Both the position numbers and the translations under genes were made by a program. A DNA stretch of 64,000 nt, taken from positions 29,962,662-30,026,661 of the forward strand of contig NC_090388.1 of the NCBI RefSeq assembly GCF_036365525.1. Direction: 5' to 3'. Under the pieces are notes generated by a model. That model saw nothing but the letters and a program-made list of their open reading frames with translations. It had not been told where the DNA came from and did no database searches. Below, in pieces: positions 1,040-56,699 of this stretch. Every line of letters begins with the position of its first letter. Within the stretch, counting starts at the first letter, position 1. The DNA comes from Heterodontus francisci (Eukaryota).

Positions 1040-7988
<6,949 letters not shown>

Positions 7989-8364: not shown

Positions 8365-8742
8365 TTCTTGTCTTTGTTTGCAAATCGCTCCATGGCCTCG
8401 CCCCTTCCTGACTCTGTAATCTCCTCCAGCCCCACAACCTTCCAAGATACCTGTGTTCCTCTAATTCTAACTTCTTGTGTATACCTGATTTTAATCAATC
8501 CACCATTGCTGGCTGTGCGTTCAGTTGCCTCAGCCCCAAACTCTGGAATACCCTCCCTACACCCTTTCCACCTTGCTTTCTTCCTTTAAGTCACTGCTTA
8601 AAACCTATTGCTTTGACCAGGCTTTTGGTTATCTGATCTAATATCTCCTTTTGTGACTTGGTGTCATAATTTGTTTTATAATGCACCTTTAAAGTACCTT
8701 GGGATATTTTCTTATGTTAAATCTGCAATATAAATATAAGTT
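8365..8742 (+). mobile_element. L2-type LINE 3' end
   Basis: ctccatggcctcgcccct...ctctggaataccctccc...ctgcttaaaacctattgctttgacc. Confidence 0.6.
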
Positions 8743-8905
8743 AAGTAAAAGCAAAATACTGCAGATGCTGGAAATCTGAAATAAAAACAAGAAATGCTGG
8801 AAATACTTAGCAGGTCTGACAGCATCTGTGGAGAGAGAAGCAGAGTTAACCTTTCAGGTCAGTGACCCATCATCAGAACCCTGCTGAGTATTTCCAGCAT
8901 TTCTT
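8743..8905 (-). mobile_element. Short Penelope-derived palindromic element with hammerhead-like motif and 15-bp TSD
   Basis: ATATAAATATAAGTT at 8728-8742 and 8906-8920; minus strand has CTGATGATGGGTCACTGACCTGAAAGGTTAAC. Confidence 0.75.
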
Positions 8906-9316: not shown

Positions 9317-9425
9317 CTAAGTTATCTCTGCTCTCCACAGATACTGACTGGCCTGCTGTGTGTTTCCAGCAGTTTCTATTTTGTTTCAGACTTGTAGCAT
9401 TTGTAGTTTTTTTGCTTTTTATTTA
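9317..9425 (+). mobile_element. Penelope terminal-repeat fragment
   Basis: ctctccacagatactgactggcctgctg...ttttgctttt, similar to the other copies. Confidence 0.6.
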
Positions 9426-9810: not shown

Positions 9811-10636
9811 GAAAGCAAAATACTGCAGGTGCTGGAAATCTGAAATAAAAACAGAATGTTCTGAAAATACTCAGCAGGTGTGGCAGCACCTGCGAGAGAA
9901 AAATAGATTTAAAGTTTCAAGTCAATGACCTTTAAAATGTAATCGACCTGAAACATTGCTGGAATTTAACGGTAGGTAGATGTGAGCCGGCCACCAACTG
10001 AAAAGTCCGTGGCGAACCCGCGTCCACCTCACCTGCGGATCCTACCTGTATTTTGCGGGTCCCCAGGCTTCAATTGATGTGAGGCGGGACTTCCACCCGC
10101 TTGACGTAGGAAGTCCCACCTAATAGAGCTGCCGGCAGCTCTTAATCCCAGCAGCGCCACTGCAGCCCAACGTGAAGGGAAGATGCCTAGGAGCCAGGAA
10201 GACAGGTAGGTTTTGGTTGCCTCCTTGGGGGCAATCGGTCAGGCCCCGGCGAGGCAAGGGTGGTCGATTGAGAGGAAGGGGAGGTGTGTGTTGGGTCTTG
10301 GGGGTGGTTGGGTTGGTGGTTGGATTATGAGGCCCACCCCGGGACCCTCTGAAGCCACCTGGTTTTCGGCCGCCCGTCCAGCCACATGTAAAATCGGCAT
10401 GCAGGCGGGCGAAGGCCACTTAAGGGCCTTGATTGGCCTGGGATGGACAGGCCTTTTCTCACTCCCGCCGCCCTATGTAATGTGGCAACGGAGGCGGGAG
10501 CGGGTCAGGAAGGCCTCCCACTCCATTTTACGCCACCCCCCCGCCACCATCCCACTCGTCGGGGTAGTGTAAAATTCAGCCCATTAACACTCTTTTTCTC
10601 TCCACAGATGCTGCCAGACATGCTGAGTATTTTGAG
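9811..10636. mobile_element. Penelope-derived palindromic element interrupted by a MITE
   Basis: Inverted arm 9811-9932; direct arm gacctgaaacatt|MITE|attaacactc...acagatgctgcc. Confidence 0.65.
9958..10582. mobile_element. Non-autonomous DNA transposon (PIF/Harbinger-like MITE)
   Basis: Termini gctggaattt...aaaattcagccc; 3-bp TSD ATT (9955-9957 and 10583-10585). Confidence 0.7.
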
Positions 10637-11649: not shown

Positions 11650-12215
11650 TGTCACGCTGACCTCTCTGTCCTCGGCCTCCTACGGTGTTCCAATGAAGCT
11701 CAGTGCAAAGCTTGAGGAACAGCACCTCATCTTTCAATTAAACACTTTACAGCCTTCCAGACTCAACACTGACACCAACAATTTCAGACCATAATCTCTG
11801 CCCTCATTTTGTTTCCTTTTTCCTTGCAGGTTTTGGTTTTACTCTTGTTTGCTTTCGAATGGCAGCTGTTCATCATTCTGCCATCCATACCTCCTCTAGA
11901 CACAACTTTTATTCCTTTACTTGTCTCATTCCCACTTTCTTTGGCTCTCCACCACCAACTATTTTGTCATTTAATGTCTCCCGTCTTCCCCCCCATCACA
12001 AACCTTCCCTTTTTTTCTTTTCCCAACGTCCCGCATTTCAGCTGCTTAAAACCTAATACATTTCTAACTTTTCCTGGTTTTAATGAAAGGTATTGACCTT
12101 AAATGTTAACTCTCTTTCTCTCTCCATAGATGCTACCTGACCTGATGAGTACTTCCAGTGTTTTCTGTATTTATTTCAGATTTCCAGCATCTGCAGTATT
12201 TTGCTTTTCTATTTT
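11650..12215 (+). mobile_element. Penelope-like element 3' fragment (end of GIY-YIG region plus terminal repeat)
   Basis: KLEEQHLIFQLNTLQPSRLNTD motif, then terminal repeat with degenerate hammerhead. Confidence 0.75.
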
Positions 12216-12749: not shown

Positions 12750-13140
12750 TTTAAATAAAAACAGAAAATGCTGGAAATACTCAGCTGCTGTGGCAGCATC
12801 TGTGGAGAGAGAAACAGAGTTAACAATTCAGGTCGATGACCTTTCATCAGATCTGGAATAAAGTTAGAGATGTAACAGGTTTTAAGCAAATACAGTGGCA
12901 GGGAAAGGGAGGAGGGGAGGAATGAACAAAAAGGAAGGTCTGTGATAGGGTGGAAGGCAGGAGAGATTAAATGATAAAAGAGATGATGCTGCAAGGCAAC
13001 AGGGGGTGTGATAATGGGACAAGTAAAGAAACAAAAGATGTGTCCAGAGGAGGTGTAAATAGGAAATTGCAGAATCATTACCAACAGCTGCCATCTGAAA
13101 ACAAACCAAAGAAAGGAGCAGAGGTTATGATCTGAAATTA
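12750..13140 (-). mobile_element. Penelope-like terminal repeat
   Basis: Reverse-complement similarity to about 11840-12190; CTGATGAAAGGTCATCGACCTGAAT on minus strand. Confidence 0.75.
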
Positions 13141-13765: not shown

Positions 13766-13880
13766 GAAAAATCAGAAAATGCTGCAAATACTCAGCCGGT
13801 CTGGCAGCATCTGTGAAGAGAGAAGCAGAGTTAACATTTCAAGTCAATGACCTTTCATCAGAGAACCGGTTCTGATGTTG
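13766..13880 (-). mobile_element. Penelope terminal-repeat fragment with hammerhead-like core
   Basis: Minus strand CTGATGAAAGGTCATTGACTTGAAATGTTAAC. Confidence 0.7.
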
Positions 13881-14516
13881 TCTCAGGGGAAGTATGCCCT
13901 TATCTACTACAACCTTCTCTTCATTAGAAATGGGCAGGTTCCCGTTCTATGTATATCTGATGCTGAATCAGGTACATTCTACTATAACCAAAGACATTTG
14001 AATGCAACTTCACTTGGATCTGATTAAGCTCTATCCTTCCAGCAGGAGATCCAAAGATAACTGCTTTATATAGACCTGACAGTCCATTCAGTTTTAAGTG
14101 TGTTGTGTCCTCCATCTTCCTGTAAGCAAATGTAAAGTATAATAACTTGAGATAAGCACCACGAGGTAGCTGGAAATATGATTAACTGTAAAACTTGCAA
14201 AACACCTGGAAAAGGAGGTTTGGGGATCATATTAGTTTGGCAGCATCAGGATAAATAGTTATGAAGTGGAGAAGTAATGAGCTGCATAGACAAGTCCAGG
14301 TGTGATGAAAAAGTCCTGAGACAAGATAAGCTGAGAAGAACAATGCAGAAAACAGAATGTAGCAACCTTGAAGACTGGAACTGTCTGGTGTAGGGTTGAA
14401 GGTTTATATAACATTTTCACAGCAAAAACAGGTCATGTGATATACTGCAAAACTGGGCAGAATTGATTTGTCAGATTTAGGCAACAACTTATATTTATTA
14501 TTATTTTTTTTATTGC

Positions 14517-14848
14517 TAGAGATACAGCACTGAAAAAGGCCCTTCGGCCCACCGAGTCTGTGCCGACCATCAACCACCCATTTATACTAATCCTACACTA
14601 ATCCCATATTCCTACCACATCCCCACCTGTCCCTATATTTCCCTACCACCTACCTATACTAGGGGCAATTTATAATGGTCAATTTACCTATCAACCTGCA
14701 AGTCTTTGGCATGTGGGAGGAAACCGGAGCACCCGGAGGAAACCCACGCAGACACAGGGAGAACTTGCAAACTCCACACAGGCAGTACCCAGAATTGAAC
14801 CCGGGTCGCTGGAGCTGTGAGGCTGCGGTGCTAACCACTGCGCCACCC
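14517..14848 (-). mobile_element. V-SINE (HE1-like)
   Basis: Near-identical reverse complement of 5659-5988. Confidence 0.9.
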
Positions 14849-14944: not shown

Positions 14945-16272
14945 GCTGGAAGAATTCATCAACTTTGCTTCCAAATTCCACCTTTCCCACACATTCATAT
15001 GGTTCATCTCCAACTCTTCGCCAACTTCTCTGTCTCCATTTCTGGGGATAGCTATTGACCAACATTTACTATAAGCCCACTGACTCCTACAGCTCCCTTG
15101 ACTATACTACTTCTCATGCCACTTTTGTAAGGACACTGTTCCATTCTCCCAGTTTCTCCATCTCAGTCGCATCTGTTTCCACGATGCCAGCTTCCATTCC
15201 AGTGCTTCTGATATGTTTCCTTTTTCTCCAGCTGTGGTTGACAGAGCCCTCTACTGTGTCTGTTCCAATTCCCATACTTACACTCTCATCCCTTTCCTCC
15301 CAAAACCACAATAGGGTTCCCCTTGTCCTTACTTTCCACCCCACCAGCCTCCACAGTTAACAAACCATCCTGCCCTTTGCACCACCTCCAGCATGTTTCC
15401 ACCACCAAACACATCTTCCCCTCTCCGCCCCCCACCTGACCCCTTTCAGCATTCTGAAGAGACCATTTTCTTTGTGACATCCTGGTCCACTCTTCAGTCA
15501 CCCCGCTTCCCATGGCACCTTCCCATGCAAGCACAGGAAATGTAACACCTGCCCTTTTACCTCCCACTTTTCAGGGCCCTAAACATTCCATCCAGGTGAA
15601 ACAGCAATTTACCTGTACTACTTTCAGTTTAGTATTCTGTATTTGCTGCTCATGATATGGTCTCCTCTTCACTGGGAGACCAAATGCAAATTGGGTGACT
15701 GCTTTGCAGAACACCTGCATTCAATCCACAAGCATGACCCCAAGCTCCAGTAGCCTGTCATTATAATTCGCTGCCTCACTTTCACTCTGACCTCTCTGTC
15801 ATAGGCCTTCTACACCGTTCCAGTGAAGCTCAATGCAAGCTTGAGGAACAGCACTGCATTTTTCTGTTCGGCACTTTGTAGCCTTCTGCACTCAACAGAG
15901 TTCAACAATTTCAGATCAGAACCATTGCCCCCATTTTTTCAGACAGCAGCTTTTGGTAATGATTTTGCTATTGCCATTTACACCTCCTCTAGATCCATCT
16001 TTTGTTTCTTTACTTTTCTCATTACCATCTCCTTTTTCCTTGCACCATCATTCCTTTTATCATTTAATCTCTTCTGCCTTCCACCTTATCACAGACCTTC
16101 CCTTTTGTTACCCCCAACAACACCCCCCCCCCCACACAAATACTTGCTTAAAATCTGTTACAACTCTAATTTTTTCCAGTTCTGACAAAAGGTCATCAAC
16201 CCAAAATGCTAATTGTTTTTCTCTGCACAGATGGTGACACCTGCTGATTATTTCCACAATTTTCTGTTTTTA
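14945..16272 (+). mobile_element. Degenerate 5'-truncated Penelope-like retroelement (RT C-terminus, GIY-YIG endonuclease, terminal repeat)
   Basis: LEEFINFASKFH, TNIYYKPTDSYSSLDYTTSH, KQQFTCT..LVFCICCS..GLLFTGE..KCKLGDCFAEHL, KLEEQH; many frameshifts. Confidence 0.85.
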
Positions 16273-18339
16273 TTACTGTCCATTTCCTCATTTGTTCACC
16301 GTGGTTGCTTAACTACACAAGTGGAATCTTTGCCCTTTAAGGGTATGTGCTGGTTCGAGTATCGTCAGAGGGCCCAAAAATTATGGTTGTATTTGGTTTG
16401 AGTGCCCTTTTTCAGGAATTCCTGCTCCACTAACTGGTTTACCACAACCATAGCACCAAATTAGATTAGCTCTACTGCTAGGGAACGTGCCATGCAACGT
16501 TAGTTCAGAAGAAAAGTACAATCAGAACACTTAATTGCAATGGAAATCCAGATGTAGTTGTTGAAATTGTTTCAAATCAGAGATATGTTGTAAGAGATAT
16601 CTTGTACAACAAGGAATTGGAAATATTGATGTCACAGGTAGCAATTTTTGTACCTAGTTCAGAGCACACAATTTCAACAATCAGATCACCACCACTTTCC
16701 ATGGCTCCACTCCCATACTAAAGAGGGAAGGTTTGCAGTTAAAAGGAAATGGCTGCTGATTTCAGAGATAATATGGTCCTGGGGAAAAAAGTGATGACTG
16801 GGTTGGAGAGGGAGTCATAGAAACTGAACTGGAAAGGGGAAACAAGACAGAAGTTTCGATAGCCTGACCCAAATAGCATATGCTGGTTTTACAGATTTAT
16901 TCACTTTATACAGAATATCTCAGTTAAACTTGAAACCTGATTACAGTAGGATTCTGCACAAGGGCAGCTAAGAGACACAGCATGTTGCACCAGACAAAAC
17001 AGACACAAAATTAATCTATTTGTACATTCTTTAGCACATATAATCTTTCAGTTTAAACAATATGAAAAAGTTCTGAGAGAAGGTTTGAGCGTGTGTGTAA
17101 AATTTCATCTCTGGACTCGGGCACGTGCAGGTTATGTGGGCTCCATGTCTGCCAAGTCTAGGCTGAGCCCTTCCTGCACAGCACATCACCACAACTTTTA
17201 CAACTTTATTGGGGATGTATTGTAAGACACTAGCCATCTCCCGTTTCCCCACAAACCTATCATCAGCCACAGTTTCGGAGGCAAGCCTTGTCCTCCCGGA
17301 TCCATCTGCCTCCTGGTCCATTCCTGCAGGGGGATAGAATGATGAAGGACAAGTGTGTCATTGGAACTTCCCAGCTGTTCAGAGTTTACATGTAGGATCC
17401 TTTGTTTGGCATTGCAGTTAGAAAGTGAAACTCTTCATGTTAAGTGCGTTAGAGTCCTTAAACAGCGCCTTCAATCTCCCAACGTACAATCAGCAGCCCC
17501 CTACACACTGGGGAAGAGAGAGTGTATAGTATAAAAACAGGCATTCAGCCCAAATGATCCATGCCATGTTTATGCTCTACACGAGCTTCCTCCCAACATT
17601 CTTTCAACGCTCTCACCATAACCTTTTCCTTTCTCACTCATGTGTTTCCCTCAGTTGATGGCCCTGTCTCTTTGCCCAGCAAGGATCAGGTTGCATTTGA
17701 TGAAGTGTGATACATTGCAGAAGACGACATCCATCACGGCAATTGTAGTCCCTCAGCTCCCTGGCTGATTTTGCAGTGGATGACAGAAAAGAACTGCGGT
17801 GTAGTGAGTGAGGGCTGGGGTCACCACTGTTTTGGTTGATAAGGCCCTGTGGGAAGTACACTGGAGCTTCAAAACTTACTGCAGCGTTTCAGAGCTAGCT
17901 ATTTACTACATGCACACAGCTGCTGGTATCACTTAGAGGCATAGCAATAGATTTGCTTCAGGCTCAGAATATTGGAATGCCCAGTAGAAAGGGCATTGCA
18001 ATCTTATCATTGTCTAAAGATTTCTCTATTTATAATTGCCTATGTGCATGGTCTGACTAGCATATAGTGTTGCATCATTTCCCCAAAAAATGCCTTCTGA
18101 AAATAGTCGAGTAGTCTTTTCTCACCCACTCAGTAACTGAAAACTCTAATAGCCAAAATTTTAACATTTCATAATGAATTATCTATTGACCTTTTTAATG
18201 ACTTCATTGAAGTTTTAAATTGCTGTAGCTAGTTATAAAATGTACTTTCCACACTACCATTGTTGCTACAATAATATTGTGTCAGCCAGGGAAGCACCAG
18301 ATGTGTATTTAACTTATTTATTCTTGACTTTAATCCAAC

Positions 18340-19200: not shown

Positions 19201-19682
19201 AAAATGTATCAGTTCTACTGTTGGAATGTATTGCAAGGCCATCAAAACTTTTGCAGAGTAATTTTCATTCCAAAGATTAATAAGCTGGTATGCAGAGTTA
19301 TTTTCATCTGCTTTTTATAATCATTCCAAAATCCAGAAAATAAAGTATTCAAAGTTTGAGTCCTCTATACTTCTGAATATACTGCAACTACTGTACACAG
19401 ATTTGAAAGTTTCCCTTAATTTAAAACTCAATGTTCAGACAAGGCTTTTGCCAAACTAAGTTCACACTACATTGAAGATACATTCTAAAAGGAAAGCATA
19501 ACTATTTTTACAAGGTATAACGTTAGTGTATGTATAATATCCACTTGGAATAGTTAATTGGGCAACCACTTTCTGAAGTGGTTCAGTACTGGCTTTCAGC
19601 CTTGGAGTGGTTTTACAGCAGGCAGGTGGGAAAAAAAAAATGGCAACTATATGGCCAATACCTAAAGTGCTTACTTTTTATT

Positions 19683-20010
19683 TAGAGATACAGCACTGAA
19701 ACAGGCCCTTTGGCCCACCGAGTCTGTGCCGACCATCAACCACCCATTTATACTAATCCTACACTAATCCCATATTCCTACCACATCCCCACCTTCCCTA
19801 TATTCCCCTACCACCTACCTATATTCAGGGCAATTTATAATGGCCAATTTACCTACCAACCTGCAAGTCTTTGGCTGTGGGAGGAAACCAGAGCACCCGG
19901 CAAAAACCCACGTGGTCACAGGGAGAACTTGCAAACTCCACACAGGCAGTACCCAGAATTGAACCTGGGTCGCTGGAGCTGTGAGGCTGTGGTGCTAACC
20001 ACTGTGCACC
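19683..20010 (-). mobile_element. V-SINE (HE1-like)
   Basis: Same family as 5659-5988. Confidence 0.9.
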
Positions 20011-20166
20011 TCCCCCCCCCCCCACTTCCATACAAACGGAGAGAAAAACAGTCTTGCCACTGCTTGCCAGTACACCTATTAGAGAAGGTACATACCAAAA
20101 TAACCTCCAAATTAATTAAGTTCCATGCATGATTACTTTGTCTGGTGTCAATATTATTTAGTATTG

Positions 20167-20360
20167 TGGCAGCATCTGTGGAAAGAGAAGCAGAGTTAAC
20201 GTTTCGGGTCAGTGACCCTTCATCGGAACTGACGATGAAGGGTCACTGACCCGAAACGTTAACTCTGCTTCTCTTTCCACAGATGCTGCCAGACCTGCTG
20301 AGTGATTCCAGCATTTCTTGTTTTTATTTCAGATTTCCAGCATCTGCAGTATTTTGCTTT
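20167..20360. mobile_element. Young Penelope-derived hairpin element (59-bp perfect inverted repeat, hammerhead-like motif), 15-bp TSD
   Basis: Arms 20167-20225 and 20233-20291; TTATTTAGTATTGTG at 20154-20168 and 20360-20374. Confidence 0.85.
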
Positions 20361-22840
20361 TATTTAGTATTGTGTTGGGAACTAAATGATATACCAGTTT
20401 TGTAATGGAGGTGCCCTGAACAAATAGCATTCCCTAACATGATTAGAGTGATAAACATGTCTATTCCCGATAGAAAGATTAAGATCCTGTGATCTATAGG
20501 GGGAAGGAAAGAAATCCCAACTTCAAATTGAAAAAGTAGTTTATTAAATAATTGCAAGATTGAATTGAGCCATCATATTCACATATCACAAAAGTACAAT
20601 CAAGGGCACTTAAATCTTTGGGAAAAAATAAATCTCAATTCAAAAATCAGCAATACAAGTGCCTAGAATCTGAAGCTCTTTAGTAACATCAAGTTTACAC
20701 AAATTGTTATCCAAGCTACATAATTTGTTGTTTTAAAAAAAAAAATTTTAGTTTAGCACTGAAAATACAAAGATTTATAATTAACACTGCAATTTTGATG
20801 TACATGTCTTAAAATCCTTATATTCAGGCTAAACTGAATGCTTGCTCTTAAGTGCATGCTTATTTGTTGTAGGTTTAAAGAGATACACCAGGCAACAAGC
20901 AGACCTTAGTCCTCAAGTGTTGCTAGTTAAACCTCTTTACTAATGCTCATTAATAAGACTATAGCCCCGTGCTACCCTAGAGGCATTGTCAACTACACAC
21001 TCTAAATACACTTATGCCAGTGAAATACAGTTTGTGGTTTTGTTTGCCCTTCAGACAATTTCATTGTTGTTTCAGCATTCCACCCATAATTTTTATTTTA
21101 CACAACATAAACAAATCCTTACACAATACTGTAAGAAAAATGGTTGACAAGTGTAAACCATTGAATAATTCCATCTTTGAATAAAAGACAAGACATTCTG
21201 GTGGATGATTCAACATTGCAGGATACAATATGAAGTGGTTAAGACAGGACAATTGATCAATAAGCCAACAGCTGATAGACAAAAATAGCCTTGGTCATTA
21301 CAATATATGGTAGATAGCATGGATGTTAGATAATAGCTGCTATATTAGCCATATTTTGCTACCAACCATTAGCCACTTTGACTTCACATCTATCACATAC
21401 TCAGCTGGGAAGATAAGAGCACAGCTCCAGCAACATAATTTCTCAAAACATCAATTATACAGCTAGGATCTCAAATCCTTCAGTGCAATATCTAAACCCA
21501 ATACCACTGAAAAAGCGAGCTTCATTTCATAACCAACAAAACATTTAAATTGAAGAAAGCTTTCATCTGGTGAAAATTTTACAATGGTATAACTCAATTA
21601 TAGAAATGATTTCTAGATCAAACAGAATTATATAAATGTTGATGTGCACCATTCATTGCTGAAGAATGTCAACAAGCTTTAGTAGAAGGTGTTTACTGGC
21701 AAGCTATTTCCTCAATTTTACGCTATTGAAGGATGCACATTGGAATTAAACATGATAGCAGGGCAACCCTGTATATTCAAAATCCCTCACCAAGATAGAC
21801 AAATCAAGCCAATAGATACCAATGTGAATTGGGGCACAGTATGCCCTCAGTTAAAAAAAAAAATCAGGGGGGTGGGGGGAGCGAGAGCGTGACACACACA
21901 GCGCGACCTGGCCTTGTAAATAGTGGTATAGCAGCCAAGTTAACAACCTATGGTTGGGGGTGAAAACAAATTAGTTGGAGGCAACAAAAAAAAAATTGAT
22001 ACCCTTGTGTCTACAAGTCATTCCAGGGTCTTAGAGTATTTCAATTTAAAAATAAAGCAGGTAGCATGCACTTATACATTCAGAATCAGATGAGTTTTGC
22101 ATTGTTCACAAGCCTAATCCAAGAGACTGCATCTAGAAAATTGAAAACCAACCTTCCCTGATGCAATATTTTGCTCTATTTTGAGGCAGAGAATGAAGAT
22201 TAGTCATAAATCTCAGTTTGAGCCAATAGTTTCATCCCAGTTACCTGCTTCACAAGCCCACATTTGAGCAAAGTCCCCATCACACTGGGCTGGATGGTCA
22301 CTGAACAAGAAGGGCTCCATTTGTCTTAAATATCCACTTTTTTATGCTGTGCACAAGATTCCTGTAGTATCTTTATAGTGAAGTCTGGTTAGAATTCATA
22401 GTTACAGAAATGCGAGACACTACTAGATCATGCTACAACAGCAAGTAGCAAAAGGACTCCACTTGGAAAAGGTCATTCAGTACCCACCAAGTATAGCTTT
22501 GATTGCTGGTTGACAGGTAATTCATGCAAGGAAAACAAAAACCTAAATCATTTATTTGTTCAGTGCCATACCTCAGTCAAACAATTATATGCATAGGTTC
22601 TTTTGAAATAAAGACAATAGTTCTTGCAAAATAAATACTGCAATTTAGAACTACAATACATAAAACTATATTAAAATGTTTAGAATTACTTTTCAAAAGG
22701 CAAGTTTTTTTTAAACAAGAAAACATGTTTTTGCATTGGGTTGAGGGGTGTGGCAGGAAGATAGATATAATTCCTAGTGATTCATGTCAGTCCACACAAA
22801 GAACAAAGTTATATCACAGATGACAGTTGATATAAAGGCC

Positions 22841-22913: not shown

Positions 22914-25900
22914 CTGAAAAAAAAAGTAACCTGTTAATCTGAATAAAGAACAGACAGGTGATACAAATACTAAACCTACACACTCTGGGTGAGCAAATAC
23001 CAAGGTTCTGCACCTCAGGGCTTAGCCAGGAGGTGGTAGCCAATGAGTCAAGGTGTAGGACATTGCAGGTGTTTGCAGGATAGCTTCACTGCCATTTAGC
23101 TCTGCACCTATTTTGGCTCAGGTAGATTTCAATGTTAGATAAGCAGTTGGGAACTGCCAACTGCACTGGCAAATGAAGGAGGCAGAAAAGGAGGTGGAGT
23201 GGAGTGTTAAGAAAGCGACCTTCCAGATGTTGCTGTTAAGGCAAGTGGACCAAGGATGGAAATCTCAGGCATGCTTGGGAGCAGAGGGGCCATAATGTCT
23301 ACAAGTCAGAGCACACAGTACCACAGAGGAGTACTGTGAAGGAGAATGGTTTGGTTCACATTGAAATCAACAAAAAGGGAAAAAAGGTTTGAAAGTAAAG
23401 GCAGTCATACAAAACATAGTCAGTGTCTTGGGCAGGCAGAAATCCATTTACTGACAAAGAATTTGTAGCCACTTAGTGAAACTGCATAAGTTAATATCTT
23501 TAAGCAGTCTACTGATCCATGATGAAAGCAATTATAGTCTGCAGTATGCTTATTGATAGGGTCAAAAATACAAATATGGTGGGAAAGAATACAATTTATT
23601 AGTACGACCTTGCCACTTCAATGACCATAGCTTCACACACACAAAAATTATATCAAGGCCCATTGATCTTCTACAGCATTACTCAAGACAAAAATAAAGT
23701 GCCGCTTTCTAGAAAGAGTCTCTACTCATGTTGCACTTAAAAAAAACAAATGTTCTTGCCAAAGCTGTGATGGAAGTGCAAAGAGGAGTCTCTCAACTTC
23801 TACTCCTCCTCTGTATCCTCACACTTGTCTGGCTCTCCCAGATACCTGGAGGCAGACTGATGCGTGCATGAGGCAAAACTCATGACTGGCTACATCCCTG
23901 CTAACGTACTAGGACTGTTCCTTGCTCTAAGGGAAGCTACTACCAACTCACATTTGTCACAGTATAAGCACCAAGATAGTAATGGACATATGGCATTTAC
24001 ATTGGTGTGCATTAGGGAATGTCCAAAATTTCTTCTTACCTTGGATCATATATCCCCGGCGTATGACATGTTGATCCAGAACAAGACTGCAACATCATGA
24101 GACGATGGTTCATCTTCTCAAGAACTTCTTGATCTATAGTCTTGGCTATATTTATGATTTGGTGTGGGTCAGAGGTTAGATTATAGACTTCTACAAACAC
24201 CTAAATAGGAAAAACCTCAAGATTATGGAAGGGATTAAGTTGGTATACCTCATACCTTTCACTTTCAAAAGGGACCAATAGCAACTGTTACATCACTGCA
24301 ATGAGATAATAACTGATGTGCATTTATGGCCAAGTAATAATGCATTGCAAATTTATCAATGGCTTTTAGAAGAAAAATCATTTAGGCAACCTCATGATCA
24401 ACTGAACAATTGGAAGCTTCTCTTTCTAACAAGTAGAATTTGTTTTGCCTGCCAAGATTTCTAACCTGGAGAATGAAGGCACATTAAACCTGATATGCCA
24501 TTAACAGTAAATTGCAATTTAAGGGTAGATTTATAACTAGAATATTCTAGGGATTCTTTTAGAAATAGGGCCACAAACATTTGGACAATTGTGTACATTT
24601 CATATTCATTCAATCTCTTTCTGTACCCTGTCCCATCACCTTGCAATGGTCATGAATAATAGGACTGTTACAAGTAACATGAAACCAACTAATGTTTAGA
24701 AGTACATTTCCTCCCTAAGTGTTTGTAATATTGTAGATTTTTTTCAAAAGGTAGTTTTGCCTGAAAGGAGGCCCAATTTAGTATAGAAAACTGGTTCTAA
24801 CATATTCAGCTTATACTTTGAAGCCAATCACAACTCAAAAAAATAGCATGAACAAGGATGCAGCATTCTTGTTACACAATTGAGTTTAGGCCAAGTATAC
24901 CATCCACGTTAAAAACATTTATTTTGCATCCCACAGCACCTCCTTTTTCACCTCTACCAGTCTTTCAGCTATGAAGAATTTAACATATAATGTCCCAAGG
25001 TGTTTGACAGGATTATAAAGCAAAATGTGCTACCGAGCCACATAAGGAGATATTAGGGCAGATACCAAAAGTTTGGTCAGGCTTTAAAAAGGAGGCAAAA
25101 AGGTAGAGTTGGAGAGGTTTAGAGAATTCCAGGGTTTAGGGCCTTAGCAGCTGCTGGCATGACCACCGACAATGAAGCAATTAAAATCAGGCTGCTCAAG
25201 GAGCCCAAATTGGAGAAGCGCAGATATTGGAGGGTTGTGGGGCTGGAAGAGATTAAAGAGATGGCAGTGGGGGCAAGAGGGAGGGATTTGAAAACAAGGA
25301 TGAGAATTTGTTTAAAAAATACCAAGCTGTTACTTAACTGGGAGCCAATGTAGGTCAGTGAACAGATGGGTGATGGGTGAACAGGGCTTTGTGAGTAAGG
25401 ACACAGAGCAGCTTTCGGTTTACAGAGGGTAGAATGTGGGACTAGAGTGCATTCAAACAATGAGAGTCAAGTTTAGAGGTAACAAAAGCTTGGATGAAGG
25501 TTCCAGCAGTAGATAAGCAGAGGCAGAGTTGGACAATGTTACAGAAGGTGGAAATTCTCATGGCATCACTAAGACCGCCTATGTGGTCAAACATGACCCC
25601 AGGATTGAGACAGTGTGGTTCAGCCTCAACAGTTGCCAAGGAAGGGGATGGAGTCAGTTTGTCAGTCAGAGGAAGGAAGGGAGGGCAGAGGCAGCTGATT
25701 GTCTCTCAGATTAAAACCATCCAAAGGCATCTATGAGCTCTTTGCACTTGTCAGAGGGGAGAATGGAGTCTATGAAGACTGATTTCATTGGAGTCAAGTA
25801 CAGCAAGTAGATCGCAGAACAAATAGTTGAGACATAATAACTGAACCATGAAGCAAGCTACAACAATGGCTCCTCCATGTTGCAGAATCAAGTCTAATCA

Positions 25901-28900
25901 TACAGACCCAGTGATGCAAAAACTGCATGCTAGCCTTCAGTCAGAAATAAATAGAACATGCAAAACGACAACAGAACCTTAGCCGGAGAAGTAGCTGATC
26001 ACAACCTCTAGCGGCACATATTGCCTTAGTTACATGCCAGTTCAATGACCAAAGTTCGGGCAGCTATTAGGAGCACTGCTGCAATACAAAAGGTGATGTA
26101 ATTTTGTTCCAAATTAGTATTTAACTGTCCAGCTGACAACTCGGCTGGAAGACAAAGGGCTGAATTTTAATCAGCCCTCTAGAGACGGGCAGTGAAGCAG
26201 AAAGCAGAGGTGGGGGATGGCCATCAAATTGTGTCAGGTCCAGAGAATGGAGAGGACTGCCTTCCCACCCAGAGGGCAACTGAGGCCCTTAAGTAGAATT
26301 TTACTCATGGCTGAGGACCAGGGGAAGGGGGTGCAAACCGGCCTCGACCACCCAGTAACACCAGACAGCCTCAATGCCAGCTGGGGTCGGGGGCCCCTCC
26401 TCCTGCTTGGGCAATTTGTGGCCCACAGGAGGGCCCCCCGGCAGTAAAGGCTGCCCTGAAGGCAACATTTTCCCCCCCAACCCAGGGCCTGCCTGACTGG
26501 CCCCAGTGAACCAGCCCCACTTACCCGTCCTCTGGCTCTCCATGGCTGCTCCTGATCCCAGGCCTACTGCAGTACCAGCAGTGGCCACTGTGCCCAGTTG
26601 CTCTGCTGGGCTGCTGGATGCTCTTTGGGGAGGCAGGATCCCTGTCCTTACAGGGAAAGGAACCCCGGTGCTAAGCAGTTAACTGCCCAAGTGCCATAAA
26701 ATACAGCTGGGGGGTCCCCAAAACGGGCGAGGTGGGGTTCTCGTCTTTCTCGCTTGGTGCTGGGACCCCCCTGCTGCCTGCATAAAATCCAGCCCAAATA
26801 GAAAATGGGAGAAAGCTGAGCATCACTTTCAAAACAGGCACAATCCAAGACTTTGGGGTAAGGGAGGGAGTTTAAAAAGACAAAATTTAACTTCACCCAC
26901 CTCACTATCATCAAATTCACAATACTGCAAGTCAGCTGGAGTTGCAATGGTTCTTACACATGCATAGGTGTTGTTATATGCATCTTCACAAACACAGTCA
27001 GGGAAACAATTCTGTAGGAAAAGTTTGGCATAGAGTAAAATCAGGGATTAAACCATAAAAGCCTACATGAATTTCAAATAGTCTTTTCTCACGAGTACCA
27101 AGAGATTAGTTATAACTAATTTGGAACTATATAGTCATTAGTTCACTGTCGCTGGGTCAAAATCCTGGAACTCCCTTCCTAACAGCACTGTTGGGGTACT
27201 TACACCCAGAAGGACTGCAGCAGTTTAGGAAGGCTGCTCACCACCATCTTCTCAAGGGCAATTAGGGATGGGCAATAAATGCTGGCATAGCCAGCGACGC
27301 CCACATCCACCAAACAAATAAAAAAAACTAAGACATTAATCTAAATGGTGTAATGATATACTTTCATGTCATTGACTCAATACCACCTAACCTGTACCTT
27401 GCAGATTAAAAGCATGAAATAATCCAAAATGCTGTGTGGAAGTGTTTATAGAATTTCTCTAGATTTAAAATTGGCTATAAAAAAAAAAGCACCTCAATAA
27501 TGCAACTTCAGGATGGCAGTCCAGCACTAAAGTCTGGGACAATAAAGCTATAACCAAATAGATTGATAAATTTCAGCTACAGGTATCAATGAAACATGAG
27601 CTACAGTTAGTAAACGGGTGTTTTGTGACCAACTACACACTGCAAGCATATCTATGATTAAAAAAAAGCCCTGCACACGTGGACAGGCTCACGGACAGCA
27701 CCAATACCGCAAATTTACAATGCTATGGGAGCATGGGAAATCAGAGCACGGAGTGCCATTTTCTACAGGGCTGTGGTTATACTCCACTAAATACAAACTC
27801 AAACCCTTTGGAAGAGTCTCACTTTTAAACTTTAATCATGCAATGGTTTCAATGCACATCCAAAATCACTGCAAAAAAAAAAAAAAAGTAGCAACATATA
27901 AAGTTGGAAATCAACTATCCAGATATATGCAGCTGCACCCAAACTTAAAATCAGTTTTATATAATGTTTCTGAATGTGCATTGTATTTAATTTGTATTGC
28001 AGTTTTCTGGTAGAAATTTTGTAGCATCCAAAATTGAAAAAATGTAATACTTACTGTGACTCCAGGCCCCAATGAAGGGCAGGTAGGATCACTTCTATTA
28101 TGTCCCTCTCCTTGATACTCTATAAGGAAGTCAGTCCTCCAAGTCATATTTTGTGGCATACCATTCTGAGGACAGAAGTGAAATTGATTATACAGTAAGA
28201 GTTTCAGATATAATGCAAAAATGAGATTAACACAAGACTTAAATTTTTAGTGATTACAAGAGTAGCGTTTTGTCAAGTCTATTAGCACCTTGCATCTTAT
28301 TTTCACATTGTTGAAAATAATTTGGAGCTAGAATTAAACTTGAGATCTGAAATAAATGAAATCTGATGAAATTACAACAGCCACTTTGAGAATTACTTTT
28401 ATATGTTCTTACCTATAACACATTATCCATGAACATATAGTTACACATGGTCACAGTCACAAAAACCTACCAGCAGAGGGAAGAGAGACATGCCATCCAT
28501 TCTAGTCTTGTTAACGTCATAACCAGCAATATCCAGGAATGTGGGAGCCAAGTCAATATTTGCTACAAGCATCTGCAGAAGGAAATTAAATTCATTAGAA
28601 AGACTGCCACAAAAGTCTTAATCATTTTATACAAACATTAAAAAACTCTCTCATTTTCCACTAAAGGTTCAGAGATCAATAGCTAGCATAAATCGATCTG
28701 AAGCAATGAGTTCAGCTTTTCATTTCAATCCCCACCACCATGCATTGAATATTAATTAAACATGAGTTGCTGCATTTGCTCCATTGAGTGATAGTGTTGT
28801 CGGGAGAAGACTGGTGCTGTGTATCTTCGGAGTTAAGAGTGCTGGATAAAACAATTTGCATGAGGATGCAATTATCATCTCATCAGGCTATAGTAACGAA

Positions 28901-42489: not shown

Positions 42490-42592
42490 TATAAAAACAG
42501 AAAATGATGGAAACATTCAGCAGGTGAAGCAGAATCTGTGGAGGGAGCACCGGAGTTAACATTGAAGGTCAATGACCTTTCATCAGAACTGC
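42490..42592 (-). mobile_element. Penelope terminal-repeat fragment
   Basis: Minus strand CAGTTCTGATGAAAGGTCATTGACCTTCAATGTTAAC. Confidence 0.65.
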
Positions 42593-46418: not shown

Positions 46419-46804
46419 GTTAAATCTAACCCTTTATTACCTGTCTGTCAATCAACCTTCTATCCACTTTGCTACATTCTTCTCATGCTGTATGTCAGAA
46501 TTTTTGCAACAAGCTTCCTGTGAAATACCTTAATGAATGCTTTATACAGCCATGGTTGCATGCTAGTCAACTTAAGTCTTGCTAAATTATTTAGAAGCAG
46601 TTTGTTTTGCACAATTAAAATAAAAAGCAAATACAGCATATGCTGGAAATCTGAAATTAATGCAGAAAATTCTCGACATATACAGCAAGTCAGTTAAAGG
46701 AAAAATACAGATTATGATATTTTTGGTGTGTACCCTTCATCAGTTTGATTTTGTGGAGCAAATAAGTGATATCAGAGAGTCTCAGTACACTAGAGTAAAT
46801 TTTT

Positions 46805-49054: not shown

Positions 49055-49469
49055 TTTTAGTTTAGTTTAGAGATACAGCACTGAAACAGGCCCTTCGGCC
49101 CACCAAGTCTGTGCCGACCATCAACCACCCATTTATACTAATCCTACACTAATTCCATATTCCTACCACATCCCCACCTGTCCCTATATTTCCCTACCAC
49201 CCACCTATACTAGGGGCAATTGCTAATGGCCAATTTACCTATCAACCAGCAAGTCTTTGGCATGTGGGAGGAAACCGGAGCACCCGGAGGAAACCCACGC
49301 AGACACAGGGAGAACTTGCAAACTCCACACAGGCAGTACCCAGAATTGAATCCGGGTCACTGGAGCTGTGAGGCTGCGGTGCTCGCCACTGTGCCACCCT
49401 ACTGCACCACTGTGCCACCCTACTGCGCCACTGTGCCACCCTACTGCGCCACTGTGCCACCCTACTGCA
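49055..49469 (-). mobile_element. V-SINE (HE1-like) with tandemly amplified 5' end, nested in CR1
   Basis: Same family; (TAAAC)n-type tail; 4x21-bp repeat at the head. Confidence 0.9.
49386..49469 (+). repeat. Tandem repeat 4 x 21 bp CCACTGTGCCACCCTACTGC(A/G)
   Basis: Units read directly at 49386, 49407, 49428 and 49449. Confidence 0.95.
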
Positions 49470-53728: not shown

Positions 53729-55104
53729 ATAGTCAAGTCTAGAGGTAAGAAAGGCATGAATGAGGGTTTTAACAGCAGAGGAGCTGAGGTAGGGGCAAAG
53801 TTGGGTGATGTTATGGAGGTGGAAATAGGCGTTCTAAGCGATGGTGCGGATGTGTGGTCAAAAGCTCATCTCAGCATCAAACATGATACCAAGAATAAGT
53901 GGATTTGCTGATCCTTAACATGCAAATAGATAGCTTTTTATGTGTTAGGAAAGAAGCTAACCACTCAGACTTTCTCCTGACAATTATATGTGAGAATTTC
54001 AGCCAGGAAGGAACTATCTCCAATCTTAAAACGTCATGTCGACCGATTTCCTGAATAATATCTGAACAAACTTCTAATGTGCAAAAGCAAGGAAGAGATA
54101 ACATCTTATTGCGTACTTAAGTGCAACACACCCAAACAACAGACCATTTCCCATAAATCATAGGCGGAAAGCTAGTGCAAGGAACTCACAATAGTCGCTC
54201 AGCATCAATAAACAGACTGAGTGCTGATTTCATGCACCAGCACAACATCACGTACGATATATTGAGTGGTTTCATTAATATTCTGAAAGCCACTTACTTG
54301 GACCAAAGTCAGCTTCTCCCGCTTACAAATTAACACATCGTTTATTTGCCAATTTTAAGTGTAACTAGATAAGATTGGAATCAAACAGCTTGTCTCTTGA
54401 AGAGCCTTTGTTTGTAATTGTAATCTTAACTGGGCTGTTCAGAAAACTTCTTTTAAATTATGGATTTCATTTTTAAAAATAACCATACAAATGTCAGCGC
54501 GAGATAGTAATGTCGATGCCTTCTGATTTATCTAATATGAATATATAGATATGTATCTACCATTTGAATGGTTTTAATTATGTATTGATCATATATTAAT
54601 GAATAAAATTACGTTTAATTTTTAGGATTGTTATTCAAATTTACACTTAGAACAAGCTTTCTGAAAAATCGCTCTTGATCGAACACAAAGTATTTTGCTC
54701 TTGAATTTATTTAATTACCGCCATGTATTTTTTTATATTATATTCTGGTCTTGGTAAGTTTTATCTGCAGTTGACTGCAAACCATAACACGAAATTTACC
54801 TGGAGCAAATTGTAACAGACAGAATGTGCCATGGGTGTCGTGGGGAAGCTGGACGTCCATGATTTCAACAAAGATACCATCAACACAATGTACTTTAAGA
54901 TATGTTTAAAAAGGCCATATTAAACAAAGTATTCTTGCTGAAATCACAAAAAATATAATGTGAGCCAGGAACAAAAGGCTAAATCGAGGGCGCGCTGAGA
55001 CTACCTCCCCAGACTGTGCAATGGTGAGGACCCGGAACTAGCTCCCGATCTACCTGGTCAGGAGTTGGGAAGTTTGTAGCAGATCAGCAGCGAGTGGCGT
55101 AGGA

Positions 55105-55663
55105 ATGGCTGCTTCTATTCGTATCTCGCAAAATGAACTCTCTGAAGTCGATATCTCTAATGGAAATTGTTCAGAAGAAGAGAATGGCACCTTCGTGAAC
55201 TCTGTCTGCAGTAGCTCGGACGGGCGGTCCGGCTTGCAGCAGTGGATGCACATTGTCGATTCCCAGAGAATAACCCAAGGCCCCTTTCTGTCGAAGGACA
55301 GCGGAAACATTCCACCATCGCCTGTGTCATCCTCAACTTTAATGCCAACGCAGCACTGGTCGAAAGTGGCGATCGGCACGGAAAAAGCGACGGGATCCCA
55401 CATTGACAATCGGGGCAGAGAACGCCAGTCTGGAATGGAAAGTATCGCTTGTAGGCGAACTTCTTCCATAGTGGACTGTCTGTTGACCGAACTCTATGAC
55501 TCTTGCACGTACAGCAGTCGAGGCATTGACAGTGTGGATAGTTCAACGGAGACCTCCAGTTCCGATGCTTTTCTGGGAAGGAGTAATTCTGGATCTATGT
55601 TCCTGCAGGAATTTCAGGAACAATACACTATAAAACATCAGATGCAGTACCTGGCACAAAAAG
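55105..55663 (+). CDS. tbc1d30: TBC1 domain family member 30, first coding exon (long N-terminal isoform)
   Basis: ggaATGg start; ...RRTSSIVDCLLTELYDSC...DSVDSSTETSSSD...LQEFQEQYTIKHQMQYLAQK G/gtattt resembles TBC1D30 N-terminal motifs (LLxELY, DSxDSSTE, HQMxYLxQK); adjacent to gns as in mammals. Confidence 0.88.
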
Positions 55664-56699
55664 GTATTTTTTTAACGAAATTCTTTTTGATCTCTGTAGA
55701 CATCGTTCCCCGAACAAAACGTGTCCTTAGTTCCGACTGCATTATGCTACCAGTTTGAGTTCGGCAAAGTGCCAATGCAAAGTGGCAATATCAATCTGAA
55801 GACGACTGAAACAAATAGCTTTCAGTGGCTTTGAATTTCCAAAGAGTGGAGTGTAGATCCAGCTCATGTTAGGGACCCATTTTCACTGTTAATTCATTAA
55901 TCCAAAAATAGTACCTGGGGACAAGTTGTTCTAAGTTAAGCAAGTAAGCTGCAAAATATTGTCAGGAAAATTATAGGCGTCAAAGAAAAATGTACATGAC
56001 AATTGATAGCCAACCTAGCCTTCCAAACCAGTGTGACTGAAATAAAGTGGTCCGGAAGAGGCCATGGGTGCTTTGAGGCGTATGTTAGATTTTGGCCGAC
56101 TAATATGTTAATGATGTAGACCAGCTCCTGGATCACCGGAGCTCATTGCAGTGGAAAAAATGCAAGTGCAAGCGTTTATATTTAACTTTGTTGCCATAGA
56201 TAGTAAAGGGGGAAGACTAAACATAAAGGTCATCTTGTCTAGTTTGATGTGTTCTTAAACAGCGGTGTGCATATATGCGAATGATCGAATCCTTCTATGC
56301 CATTAATGTCAGGAACTGAACCAAATTGATACAGCACTTGACTAAGCAGCAGTGAGCTCACGGGTAATTTGTGGACCTTGAGGGTAAACTTAATGTCTAT
56401 TCAGACATATGGGACTTCGGTGGACACGATTGAGAGATAACGTATGACACAGCCGTAAAATGTTACTCTAATGGGTCCACATTAAAACTCAAGATATTGC
56501 GCCTTACATCTGATTGTCAAATCTCTGTGTTAAATGACACCACGCGAGTTGAAAAGACAATGGAAATGGGAGCATGACAGATTGAGATTCTGGTCTTGAT
56601 AGTGAGATAGTCAATTGAGATCAGAACATTTGTCACTAACATTTGAAAGTGTGCTACAGGATTTAGTCCCATCTCGTAAACGTTATGTATCTGTAATAA

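What the first reader, a model, noticed from the sequence alone, without database searches (positions are those of the whole stretch)
20154..20374. Young, TSD-flanked ~190-bp hairpin retroelement with a minimal hammerhead-like motif in each arm
Seen: a perfect 59-bp inverted repeat (20167-20225 / 20233-20291, 7-nt loop) flanked by a 15-bp direct repeat TTATTTAGTATTGTG. The minus strand reads CAGTT-CCGATGA-A-GGGTC-ACT-GACCC-GAAAC-GTT-AACT; the plus arm has the same motif minus its first bases. Sister copies have canonical CTGATGA. The layout fits a type I hammerhead: stem I AGTT/AACT, CUGAUGA core, stem II GGGUC/GACCC, GAAA, and a loop-less palindromic ACGU stem III. Known: Penelope-like elements carry minimal hammerheads with palindromic stem III that are proposed to cleave as dimers, and they often insert with inverted terminal repeats. 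Inference: this is either a non-autonomous, ribozyme-bearing mini-Penelope (retrozyme-like) family or an extreme truncation product. Zero arm mismatches suggest a recent insertion or arm homogenisation.
Basis: partly seen in the sequence, partly recalled or inferred. Interest (0 to 1): 0.7.

Follow-up and report, generated by a model that had tools for sequence, protein, structure and literature searches.

The report
Head-to-head stub of Penelope retrotransposon
This 221-base hairpin is real but is one of thousands of short scraps of a young, protein-coding Penelope-type jumping gene, not a self-standing ribozyme element; it was likely made when both cut strands of the target DNA each started a copy of the element's RNA and both copies stopped at the front edge of its small, probably weakened, hammerhead ribozyme.

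Summary
The 59-bp inverted repeat and 15-bp target duplication are confirmed. Only the minus arm carries a whole minimal hammerhead, and the hairpin would sequester it. The unit is the terminal repeat (pLTR) of a Neptune/Nematis-type Penelope-like element: 38,282 exact 52-mer matches, and long copies run into an RT + GIY-YIG frame. It is not an independent retrozyme: 23 unselected hairpins have 21 different junctions. The layout (inverted pLTR, one-sided 30-40-bp tail, TSD) is published. The breakpoints are not random, though. 61 of 100 arms start within -6..+26 of the hammerhead's first base, and 0 of 15 checked start at the predicted cut. Paired arms use the two alternative 3' ends one each (19 of 20; never both long). 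The shorter arm often reaches further 5', which excludes simple fold-back. 5' words are re-copied at +1 (283 against 3 for a control). Best model: both target strands prime on one uncut RNA and run off at its start. Against a simple RNA start: copies primed further downstream mostly pass +1. The young subfamily has U4C in the core; older ones have true CUGA. The scan noted this family before, in this genome and about 22 others. Interest modest.

The parts
20154..20168 (.). Left target-site duplication, 15 bp; its last 2 nt are shared with the inverted arm
   Evidence: the family's modal TSD is 14 bp, 13-16 bp in 23 of 56 short insertions
20167..20233 (-). Inverted short arm: pLTR positions -2 to +64 (+1 = A of AGTTCC, window 20230). 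Its outer end is not at either of the family's two usual 3' ends (minor class)
20194..20230 (-). Complete minimal type I hammerhead motif with U4C core (CCGAUGA), 5-bp stem II, palindromic CG in place of stem III; predicted cut after 20198; activity untested
   Evidence: features compared with PMC4209133
20233..20364 (+). Long arm: pLTR positions +6 to +137, ending at the family's distal 3' end
   Evidence: 1 difference in 128 nt to the nearest other fetched copy
20233..20264 (+). Broken hammerhead: lacks the 5' strand of stem I and C3
   Evidence: sequence
20329..20364 (+). About 36-nt PLE 'tail' between the proximal (about +101) and distal (about +137) 3' ends
   Evidence: two-peaked 3' ends in 100 arms; tail as described in PMC8557442, PMC3846280, PMC11167929
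20360..20374 (.). Right target-site duplication; its first 5 nt (TTATT) are shared with the element's 3' end

Best explanation
The feature is a short head-to-head insertion made of two overlapping pieces of the terminal repeat of an abundant, young, endonuclease-bearing Penelope-like retrotransposon, likely produced in one event when both strands of a staggered target cut primed reverse transcription on the same uncut RNA and both cDNAs ran off at the hammerhead's first base, the probable start of that RNA. SHOWN: identity with the PLE pLTR; parent RT-GIY-YIG frame; two alternative 3' ends 36 nt apart; pile-up of 5' ends at +1; arms of one insertion carry the same subfamily haplotype; one long and one short 3' end per hairpin; neither arm can be a mere copy of the other in many pairs. 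INFERRED: a protein dimer nicks both strands about 14-15 nt apart; one active site starts at about +137 and the other at about +101 (here, unusually, at +64 over a 2-nt match to the target); the second cDNA displaces or follows the first; the two cDNA ends are joined over 0-13 nt of microhomology (1 nt here); +1 is a capped Pol II start at an Inr-like TCAGTT. Hammerhead cleavage is predicted to play no part in making these stubs, and this copy is predicted to be dead because any transcript forms a 59-bp duplex over both motifs.
For: Family size: 38,282 exact 52-mers. Parent: 709-aa open frame in L156 with DKG, YIDD, CX4CXXC linker and GIY-YIG (Pfam RVT_1 E 1.9e-5, GIY-YIG E 0.003, both under the curated cut-off); L221 is pLTR-ORF-3'UTR-pLTR. 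5' ends: 61 of 100 unselected arms at -6..+26, 32 at +1..+5, 3 at -14..-25, 36 long and scattered; genome-wide 42,658 matches for +10..+44 against 19,351 for -12..+23. Not the cut site: the 44-mer starting at the cut has only 45,036 matches, and 0 of the 15 extra places in its first 100 begin there. Pairing of 3' ends: 19 long+short, 1 short+short, 0 long+long among 20 unselected hairpins with both ends at a usual site (23 hairpins in all), while unpaired arms split 36 long to 32 short. The short arm reaches further 5' in 10 of 21, the long arm in 3, 8 ties; this copy is of the first kind. Same source: 175 of 180 diagnostic sites agree between arms. Hard stop at +1: CCGA directly before AGTTCCG occurs 283 times against 3 for a shuffled control, and a second register 56 times with the variable base matching in 56 of 56. 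G before +1: 47 G, 28 A, 25 T in the first 100 of 5,624 (hand count; G against A p 0.002). In vitro, a Poseidon PLE protein cuts and extends both strands, starts at two internal sites bounding the tail, is predicted dimeric and does not need hammerhead cleavage (PMC11167929).
Against: Copies that run on past +140 stop at -6..+26 in only 11 of the 45 that reach +26; 34 pass beyond -7 (p 6e-5 against 61 of 100). So +1 is not the start of every template: read-through or tandem RNAs must also be used, or +1 is a barrier only during early synthesis. The cap-G signal is thin: a clean single extra G in 4 of 23 TSD-bearing junctions against one extra A, and in 6 of 15 G cases the G belongs to the TSD (the G class was over-sampled on purpose). 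5 of 180 diagnostic sites disagree between arms. 8 of 21 junctions are centred on small palindromes or tie and fit fold-back equally well. PMC11167929 saw no strand difference in start site in vitro and concerns another clade. No RNA 5' end was seen (only contigs available). The inverted arm of this very copy does not end at a usual start site. Short re-copied words could be host end-joining patches.
Confidence: 0.68

Rival explanations
1. Same PLE stub, but +1 is a template boundary or abortive-initiation point set by the RNP (telomerase-like), not the RNA's physical 5' end; about two thirds of primings stop there and some realign and re-copy.
For: Copies primed further downstream mostly pass +1 (11 of 45 stop). 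Re-copying occurs in two registers that match an AG in the template. The first register is rarer in the subfamily lacking that AG (2 of 100 against 9 of 100, hand count; weak). PLE RTs are sister to telomerase (PMC8557442).
Against: The G excess before +1 and the Inr-like TCAGTT fit a capped start. A TATA-less internal promoter with an Inr is shown for Drosophila Penelope (PMC2377424). No structure upstream of +1 that could act as a boundary was found. Only 1 of 30 re-copied ends holds a whole extra unit.
Confidence: 0.17
2. Same PLE stub, but the inverted arm arises by fold-back or self-priming of one cDNA or an antisense RNA (Arkhipova et al. 2013), with endonuclease resolution trimming the tail on one side.
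For: Arms share haplotypes. Some junctions sit on the stem II palindrome or TTCCGAA (L061, L085, L045, L078). One-sided tails follow naturally. Proposed in PMC3846280 and PMC8557442.
Against: Fold-back requires the tailed arm to hold the 5'-most bases. The opposite holds in 10 of 21 unselected and 33 of 79 total pairs, this copy included. L084 and L116 have non-overlapping arms, as in twin priming.
Confidence: 0.1
3. An independent non-autonomous, ribozyme-processed mini-element (retrozyme-like) that copies itself as a hairpin unit.
For: Two junctions recur twice among 23 hairpins. Short copies outnumber long ones. Animal retrozymes are reported to derive from pLTRs (bioRxiv 10.64898/2026.07.22.740005).
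Against: 21 of 23 junctions are unique; the recurring ones sit on microhomologies, and L070/L087 differ in haplotype. No head-to-tail units. Ends are not at the ribozyme cut. The hairpin hides both motifs. Long autonomous copies share the same haplotypes.
Confidence: 0.04

Closest known systems
Insertion units of EN+ Penelope-like elements with inverted pLTR, one-sided 30-40-bp tail and TSD (Pen2a_Av, PMC3846280 passages; Fig. 2 legend of PMC8557442)
   Same: Head-to-head inverted pLTR, tail on one arm only, short TSD, small palindrome or overlap at the junction, partial and full tandems in the parent family.
   Different: Here the whole insert is only the two pLTR pieces; the TSD is longer (mode 14 bp against 8-10); 5' ends pile up at one point; the data argue against the antisense self-priming proposed in 2013.
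Minimal type I hammerheads of metazoan PLEs (Cervera and De la Pena 2014, PMC4209133, parts 1-2 of 4 read)
   Same: 4-bp stem I, extra base between 9 and 10.1, G10.1-C11.1, palindromic 15.2/16.2, no loop 3, mostly solo motifs in truncated copies, pairs in opposite strands.
   Different: Stem II is 5 bp; the youngest subfamily has U4C; the cut triplet is GUU. No assay here.
PAc Poseidon element of Anolis in vitro (Frangieh et al. 2024, PMC11167929, parts 1-2 of 4 read)
   Same: Two internal RT start sites bounding the tail; both target strands cut and extended; uncut RNA is the template; AT-rich targets.
   Different: Other clade (no CX2-5CxxC linker). The paper saw no strand difference in start site and does not, in the parts read, describe one-long-one-short pairing or a 5' run-off point.
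Non-LTR retrozymes of animals (PMC7229834, listing and abstract only; bioRxiv 10.64898/2026.07.22.740005, part 1 of 5 and passages)
   Same: Small, non-coding, type I hammerhead, pLTR-related.
   Different: Those are head-to-tail arrays with a whole hammerhead per unit; this is head-to-head, with one broken motif and variable junctions.
L1 twin priming (recalled, no call)
   Same: The second target strand primes on the RNA and gives an inverted 5' piece between TSDs.
   Different: In L1 the two pieces barely overlap; here they usually duplicate 60-100 nt, and the two priming sites are fixed.

Membership tests
EN+ Penelope-like element (parent family) | Single ORF with PLE-type RT (DKG, YxDD) followed by C-terminal GIY-YIG endonuclease | tested here: met
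   L156 709-aa frame, (Pfam hits are below the curated cut-offs)
EN+ Penelope-like element (parent family) | pLTR flanking the ORF, partial or full tandems | tested here: met
   L221, L231, L237; 3.29-kb spaced copies on C1
EN+ Penelope-like element (parent family) | Inverted truncated pLTR, 30-40-bp tail on one end, TSD | tested here: met
Neptune/Nematis clades | CX2-5CxxC linker between RT and EN | tested here: met
   CX4CXXC at residue 575 of the L156 frame; definition from PMC8557442
Neptune/Nematis clades | RT phylogeny places it in Neptune | not tested
   no reference proteins held; no tree built
Minimal type I hammerhead of PLEs | Stems I and II, GAAA, UH, extra base after A9, palindromic 15.2/16.2 | tested here: met
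   minus arm only
Minimal type I hammerhead of PLEs | Canonical core CUGANGA | tested here: not met
   U4C in this copy and in the young subfamily; canonical in older subfamilies. U4C lowers activity in vitro but is tolerated in a viroid (PMC3088659)
Minimal type I hammerhead of PLEs | Covariation in stems | tested here: inconclusive
   stem II 100% paired in 10 hand-picked rows, one pair G-C/G-U/A-U; 76 of 500 shuffles reach it
Minimal type I hammerhead of PLEs | Match to an Rfam hammerhead model | tested here: not met
   (the models need a stem III; recalled)
Minimal type I hammerhead of PLEs | Self-cleavage as dimer or with protein | not testable with these tools
   needs an assay
Non-LTR retrozyme | Head-to-tail units, each with a complete hammerhead | tested here: not met
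Non-LTR retrozyme | Fixed unit length and junction propagated across loci | tested here: not met
   21 junctions in 23 hairpins
Non-LTR retrozyme | Abundant circular RNA cut at the ribozyme | not testable with these tools
   only contigs were served

The most novel reading that the evidence does not exclude
These stubs are a genome-wide footprint of how Penelope-like elements integrate: a protein dimer primes both strands of the cut target on one RNA at two fixed sites (one each, explaining the one-sided tail and the inverted pLTR), runs to a hard boundary at the hammerhead's first base, and there realigns on a 2-nt match and re-copies the end as telomerase does; the most successful young subfamily spread with a U4C-weakened ribozyme, so cleavage is dispensable or deliberately slowed.
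Probability: 0.3. Interest if true: 0.6.

Novelty: new member of a known kind. Interest (0 to 1): 0.3.

Why it matters
The single copy is ordinary debris. The family statistics matter more. How PLEs, the retrotransposons closest to telomerase, make inverted pLTRs and one-sided tails is still open in the papers read (antisense self-priming in 2013, endonuclease resolution in 2021, unvalidated later steps in 2024). The strict one-long-one-short pairing, the short-arm-longer junctions and the stop at +1 give sharp predictions for the existing in vitro PLE system. The U4C switch in the youngest subfamily is a natural test of whether the hammerhead matters for mobility. I found no paper stating these points (searches; listings and abstracts only), but supplements were not read, notably Fig. 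S2 of PMC11167929, and Lunse et al. on PLE hammerhead variants was not held. This scan has noted most of it before.

Tried and rejected
Rfam: no hammerhead at either threshold; only generic miRNA-hairpin scores. The first DNA search suggested one fixed breakpoint; this was a ranking bias of the query and was replaced by pattern-anchored samples. One search had a numbering slip of one base and a misplaced free position, corrected; its 3' ends read one too high. Idea that CTGA in sister copies is CpG decay: rejected (0 CCAA in 100, CTGA linked to GACCT in 35 of 40). Idea that the 5' ends are ribozyme cut products: rejected for the bulk; 7 of 70 downstream-primed copies start at +41..+51, none at +34..+40, which is inconclusive. 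Idea that +3 is a splice acceptor used in the template (the upstream sequence looks like one, and the Drosophila intron ends at helix I): no spliced junction was found with six candidate upstream words in the loci held; not excluded. Arm homogenisation: not needed. RNA start and expression: all 23 runs served were contigs; one search was laid on the element's 3' part in reverse and told nothing on starts. Empty site: not covered by the four runs laid; no relatives are held. Pfam on a shorter frame gave nothing; PDB sequence searches gave nothing. Covariation test not significant. No structure or complex prediction was run.

Full report
Observation. The inverted repeat (20167-20225 / 20233-20291, 59 nt, no mismatch) and the 15-bp direct repeat (20154-20168, 20360-20374) are as described, and the hairpin is far beyond chance (z -21). 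I number the element from the A of AGTTCC (+1 = window 20230 on the minus strand). The minus arm spans -2..+64 and holds a complete minimal hammerhead layout. The plus arm spans +6..+137 and lacks stem I 5' and C3. The 'loop' belongs to the minus arm, and the two arms meet over one shared base. Rfam does not score the motif; a descriptor finds two hits in the window against 0.03 per shuffle.

What it belongs to. An exact 52-mer of the long arm occurs 38,282 times in the 6-Gb genome. I fetched the first 100 listed places (start of contig C1; 106 matches, 100 unique arms). 36 of these arms continue upstream for 43 to over 2,100 nt with scattered 5' ends, into a reading frame of up to 709 aa with DKG, YIDD, a CX4CXXC linker and GIY-YIG (Pfam RVT_1 and GIY-YIG below cut-off). 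L221 is a full unit, pLTR-ORF-3'UTR-pLTR; L231 and L237 are partial tandems. By the linker this is a Neptune/Nematis-type EN+ PLE (PMC8557442, passages); no tree was built. The hammerhead lies on the element's sense strand at the front of the pLTR.

Anatomy of short copies. 3' ends fall in two peaks, about +101 and about +137 (which reads one too high): the PLE tail, whose ends are the two RT start sites in vitro (PMC11167929, parts 1-2 read). Of 56 distinct short insertions, 23 have an inverted arm and 36 a duplication of 7 nt or more, 13-16 nt in 23. So the window copy is typical in size, TSD and layout, and the layout is published (PMC3846280 and PMC8557442, passages). Its one unusual trait is that the inverted arm ends at +64, over a 2-nt match to the target, a minor class.

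Not an independent family. The 23 unselected hairpins show 21 junction strings; the two repeats sit on palindromes, and one pair differs in haplotype. There are no head-to-tail units. Any transcript of this copy would lock both motifs in a 59-bp duplex (inference).

Where the 5' ends fall. 61 of 100 arms start at -6..+26 and 32 at +1..+5, against 3 at -14..-25. Genome-wide, a 35-mer at +10..+44 has 42,658 matches and one at -12..+23 has 19,351. The predicted cut is after +33. A 44-mer starting there has 45,036 matches, and none of the 15 places it adds in its first 100 begins at the cut, in line with uncut RNA being the template in vitro. The stop at +1 is hard: the word CCGA directly precedes it 283 times (control word 3 times), in 15 of 30 loci extending to six or more bases of the element's start, and CCGAWGA precedes it 56 times with the variable base matching in all 56. 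This fits a cDNA end re-pairing with an AG in the template and re-copying, but host end-joining patches could do the same. TCAGTT resembles an initiator (recalled consensus), and G is in excess before +1 (47 G, 28 A, 25 T, hand count; p 0.002). Clean untemplated G was seen in only 4 of 23 TSD-bearing junctions. Against a universal RNA start: of 70 copies that run on past +140, 34 pass beyond -7, 11 stop at -6..+26 and 25 stop at +27..+140 (a few are tandem duplicates). Either read-through and tandem RNAs supply those copies, or +1 is a barrier only early in synthesis.

How the two arms relate. They agree at 175 of 180 subfamily-diagnostic sites, so both come from one RNA or one source locus. 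Where both end at a usual site, one is long and one short in 19 of 20 unselected hairpins and 65 of 66 in all loci held (the larger set is biased by my search patterns and holds a few duplicates); long+long never occurs, though unpaired arms split 36 to 32. Fold-back of a single cDNA or antisense RNA requires the tailed arm to hold the 5'-most bases. Instead the short arm reaches further in 10 of 21 unselected pairs, the long arm in 3, with 8 ties; the window copy is of the first kind. Two independent primings, one per target strand, explain this, and the Anolis protein does cut and extend both strands and is predicted dimeric. The steps of displacement and joining are inferred.

The ribozyme. 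It has the traits listed for PLE minimal hammerheads (PMC4209133, parts 1-2 read). Among the first 100 of 52,350 degenerate matches, 60 have CCGA, 40 CTGA and none CCAA; CTGA goes with GACCT in 35 of 40 and CCGA with GACCC in 55 of 60 (hand counts). So the canonical core is a true older haplotype and the young subfamily carries U4C, a change that lowers activity in vitro but is tolerated in a viroid (PMC3088659, passage). Stem II stays fully paired across 10 hand-picked copies with one G-C/G-U/A-U pair, not significant. Activity is untested.

Earlier notes of this scan. I stated my reading before the first look-up (no hits by sequence). Word and place searches then showed 181 similar notes in at least 22 genomes and 79 in this genome with much the same conclusion. 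These are unchecked AI notes and not independent support, but the finding is recurrent. What I add from my own counts are the pairing statistics, the short-arm-longer test, the two re-copying registers with a control, and the pass-through control that limits the 'RNA start' reading.

Verdict. A real, ordinary stub of a known kind of element (about 0.95 for that identity), with a mechanism that is likely but unproven (0.68). New member of a known kind; interest 0.3.

Noticed in passing
window 20540-21500 (minus): Transcript-like contigs of about 3.9 kb in 3 of 4 runs cover 20540/20554 to 21500 and stop there; a minus-strand AATAAA lies at 20545-20540. The element thus sits about 170 bp past the 3' end of a host transcript, in its likely read-through zone.
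   Followed up: partly
window 24036-24200 and 26829-27047 (minus): Exon-like frames that resemble the C-terminal part of N-acetylglucosamine-6-sulfatase (recalled; Pfam and PDB searches did not confirm); probably the host gene of that transcript.
   Followed up: partly
window 8742-8880, 9331-9425, 9812-9933, 10584-10632, 12083-12208, 12753-12855, 13768-13862, 16188-16274, 42491-42591, 46618-46696: Older, 72-93% identical copies of the same pLTR family; several have the canonical core and an A-U or G-U pair at the base of stem II.
   Followed up: partly
window 19675-20007, with copies at 5659-5988, 14507-14848, 49061-49399: A 330-bp dispersed repeat, 90-96% identical among four copies, just left of the finding; SINE-like (recalled), unrelated to the hairpin.
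   Followed up: no
window 20193-20233 (minus): With the three upstream bases present, a GUCAGU/ACUGAC helix is predicted to replace stem II; without them stems I and II form. This could keep the ribozyme off in read-through RNA, but the fold is not better than shuffles.
   Followed up: partly
G000 C1:23221481-23228095 and C1:104038113-104044733: Three matches each, about 3.29 kb apart: full head-to-tail arrays of the parent element, candidate sources of read-through RNA.
   Followed up: no
L068/L158, L072, L094: Long insertions are also head-to-head, with arms of hundreds to over 2,000 bp; in L068/L158 and L072 one arm carries the tail and the other does not.
   Followed up: partly
L221 positions +6..+140: An open frame runs through the pLTR and stops just after it; the long ORF frame resumes at an ATG shortly downstream. 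A pyrimidine tract ending in AG at about +141 looks like a splice acceptor.
   Followed up: no
window 55042-55755 (plus): A 238-codon open frame that looks like a host exon rather than a repeat.
   Followed up: no
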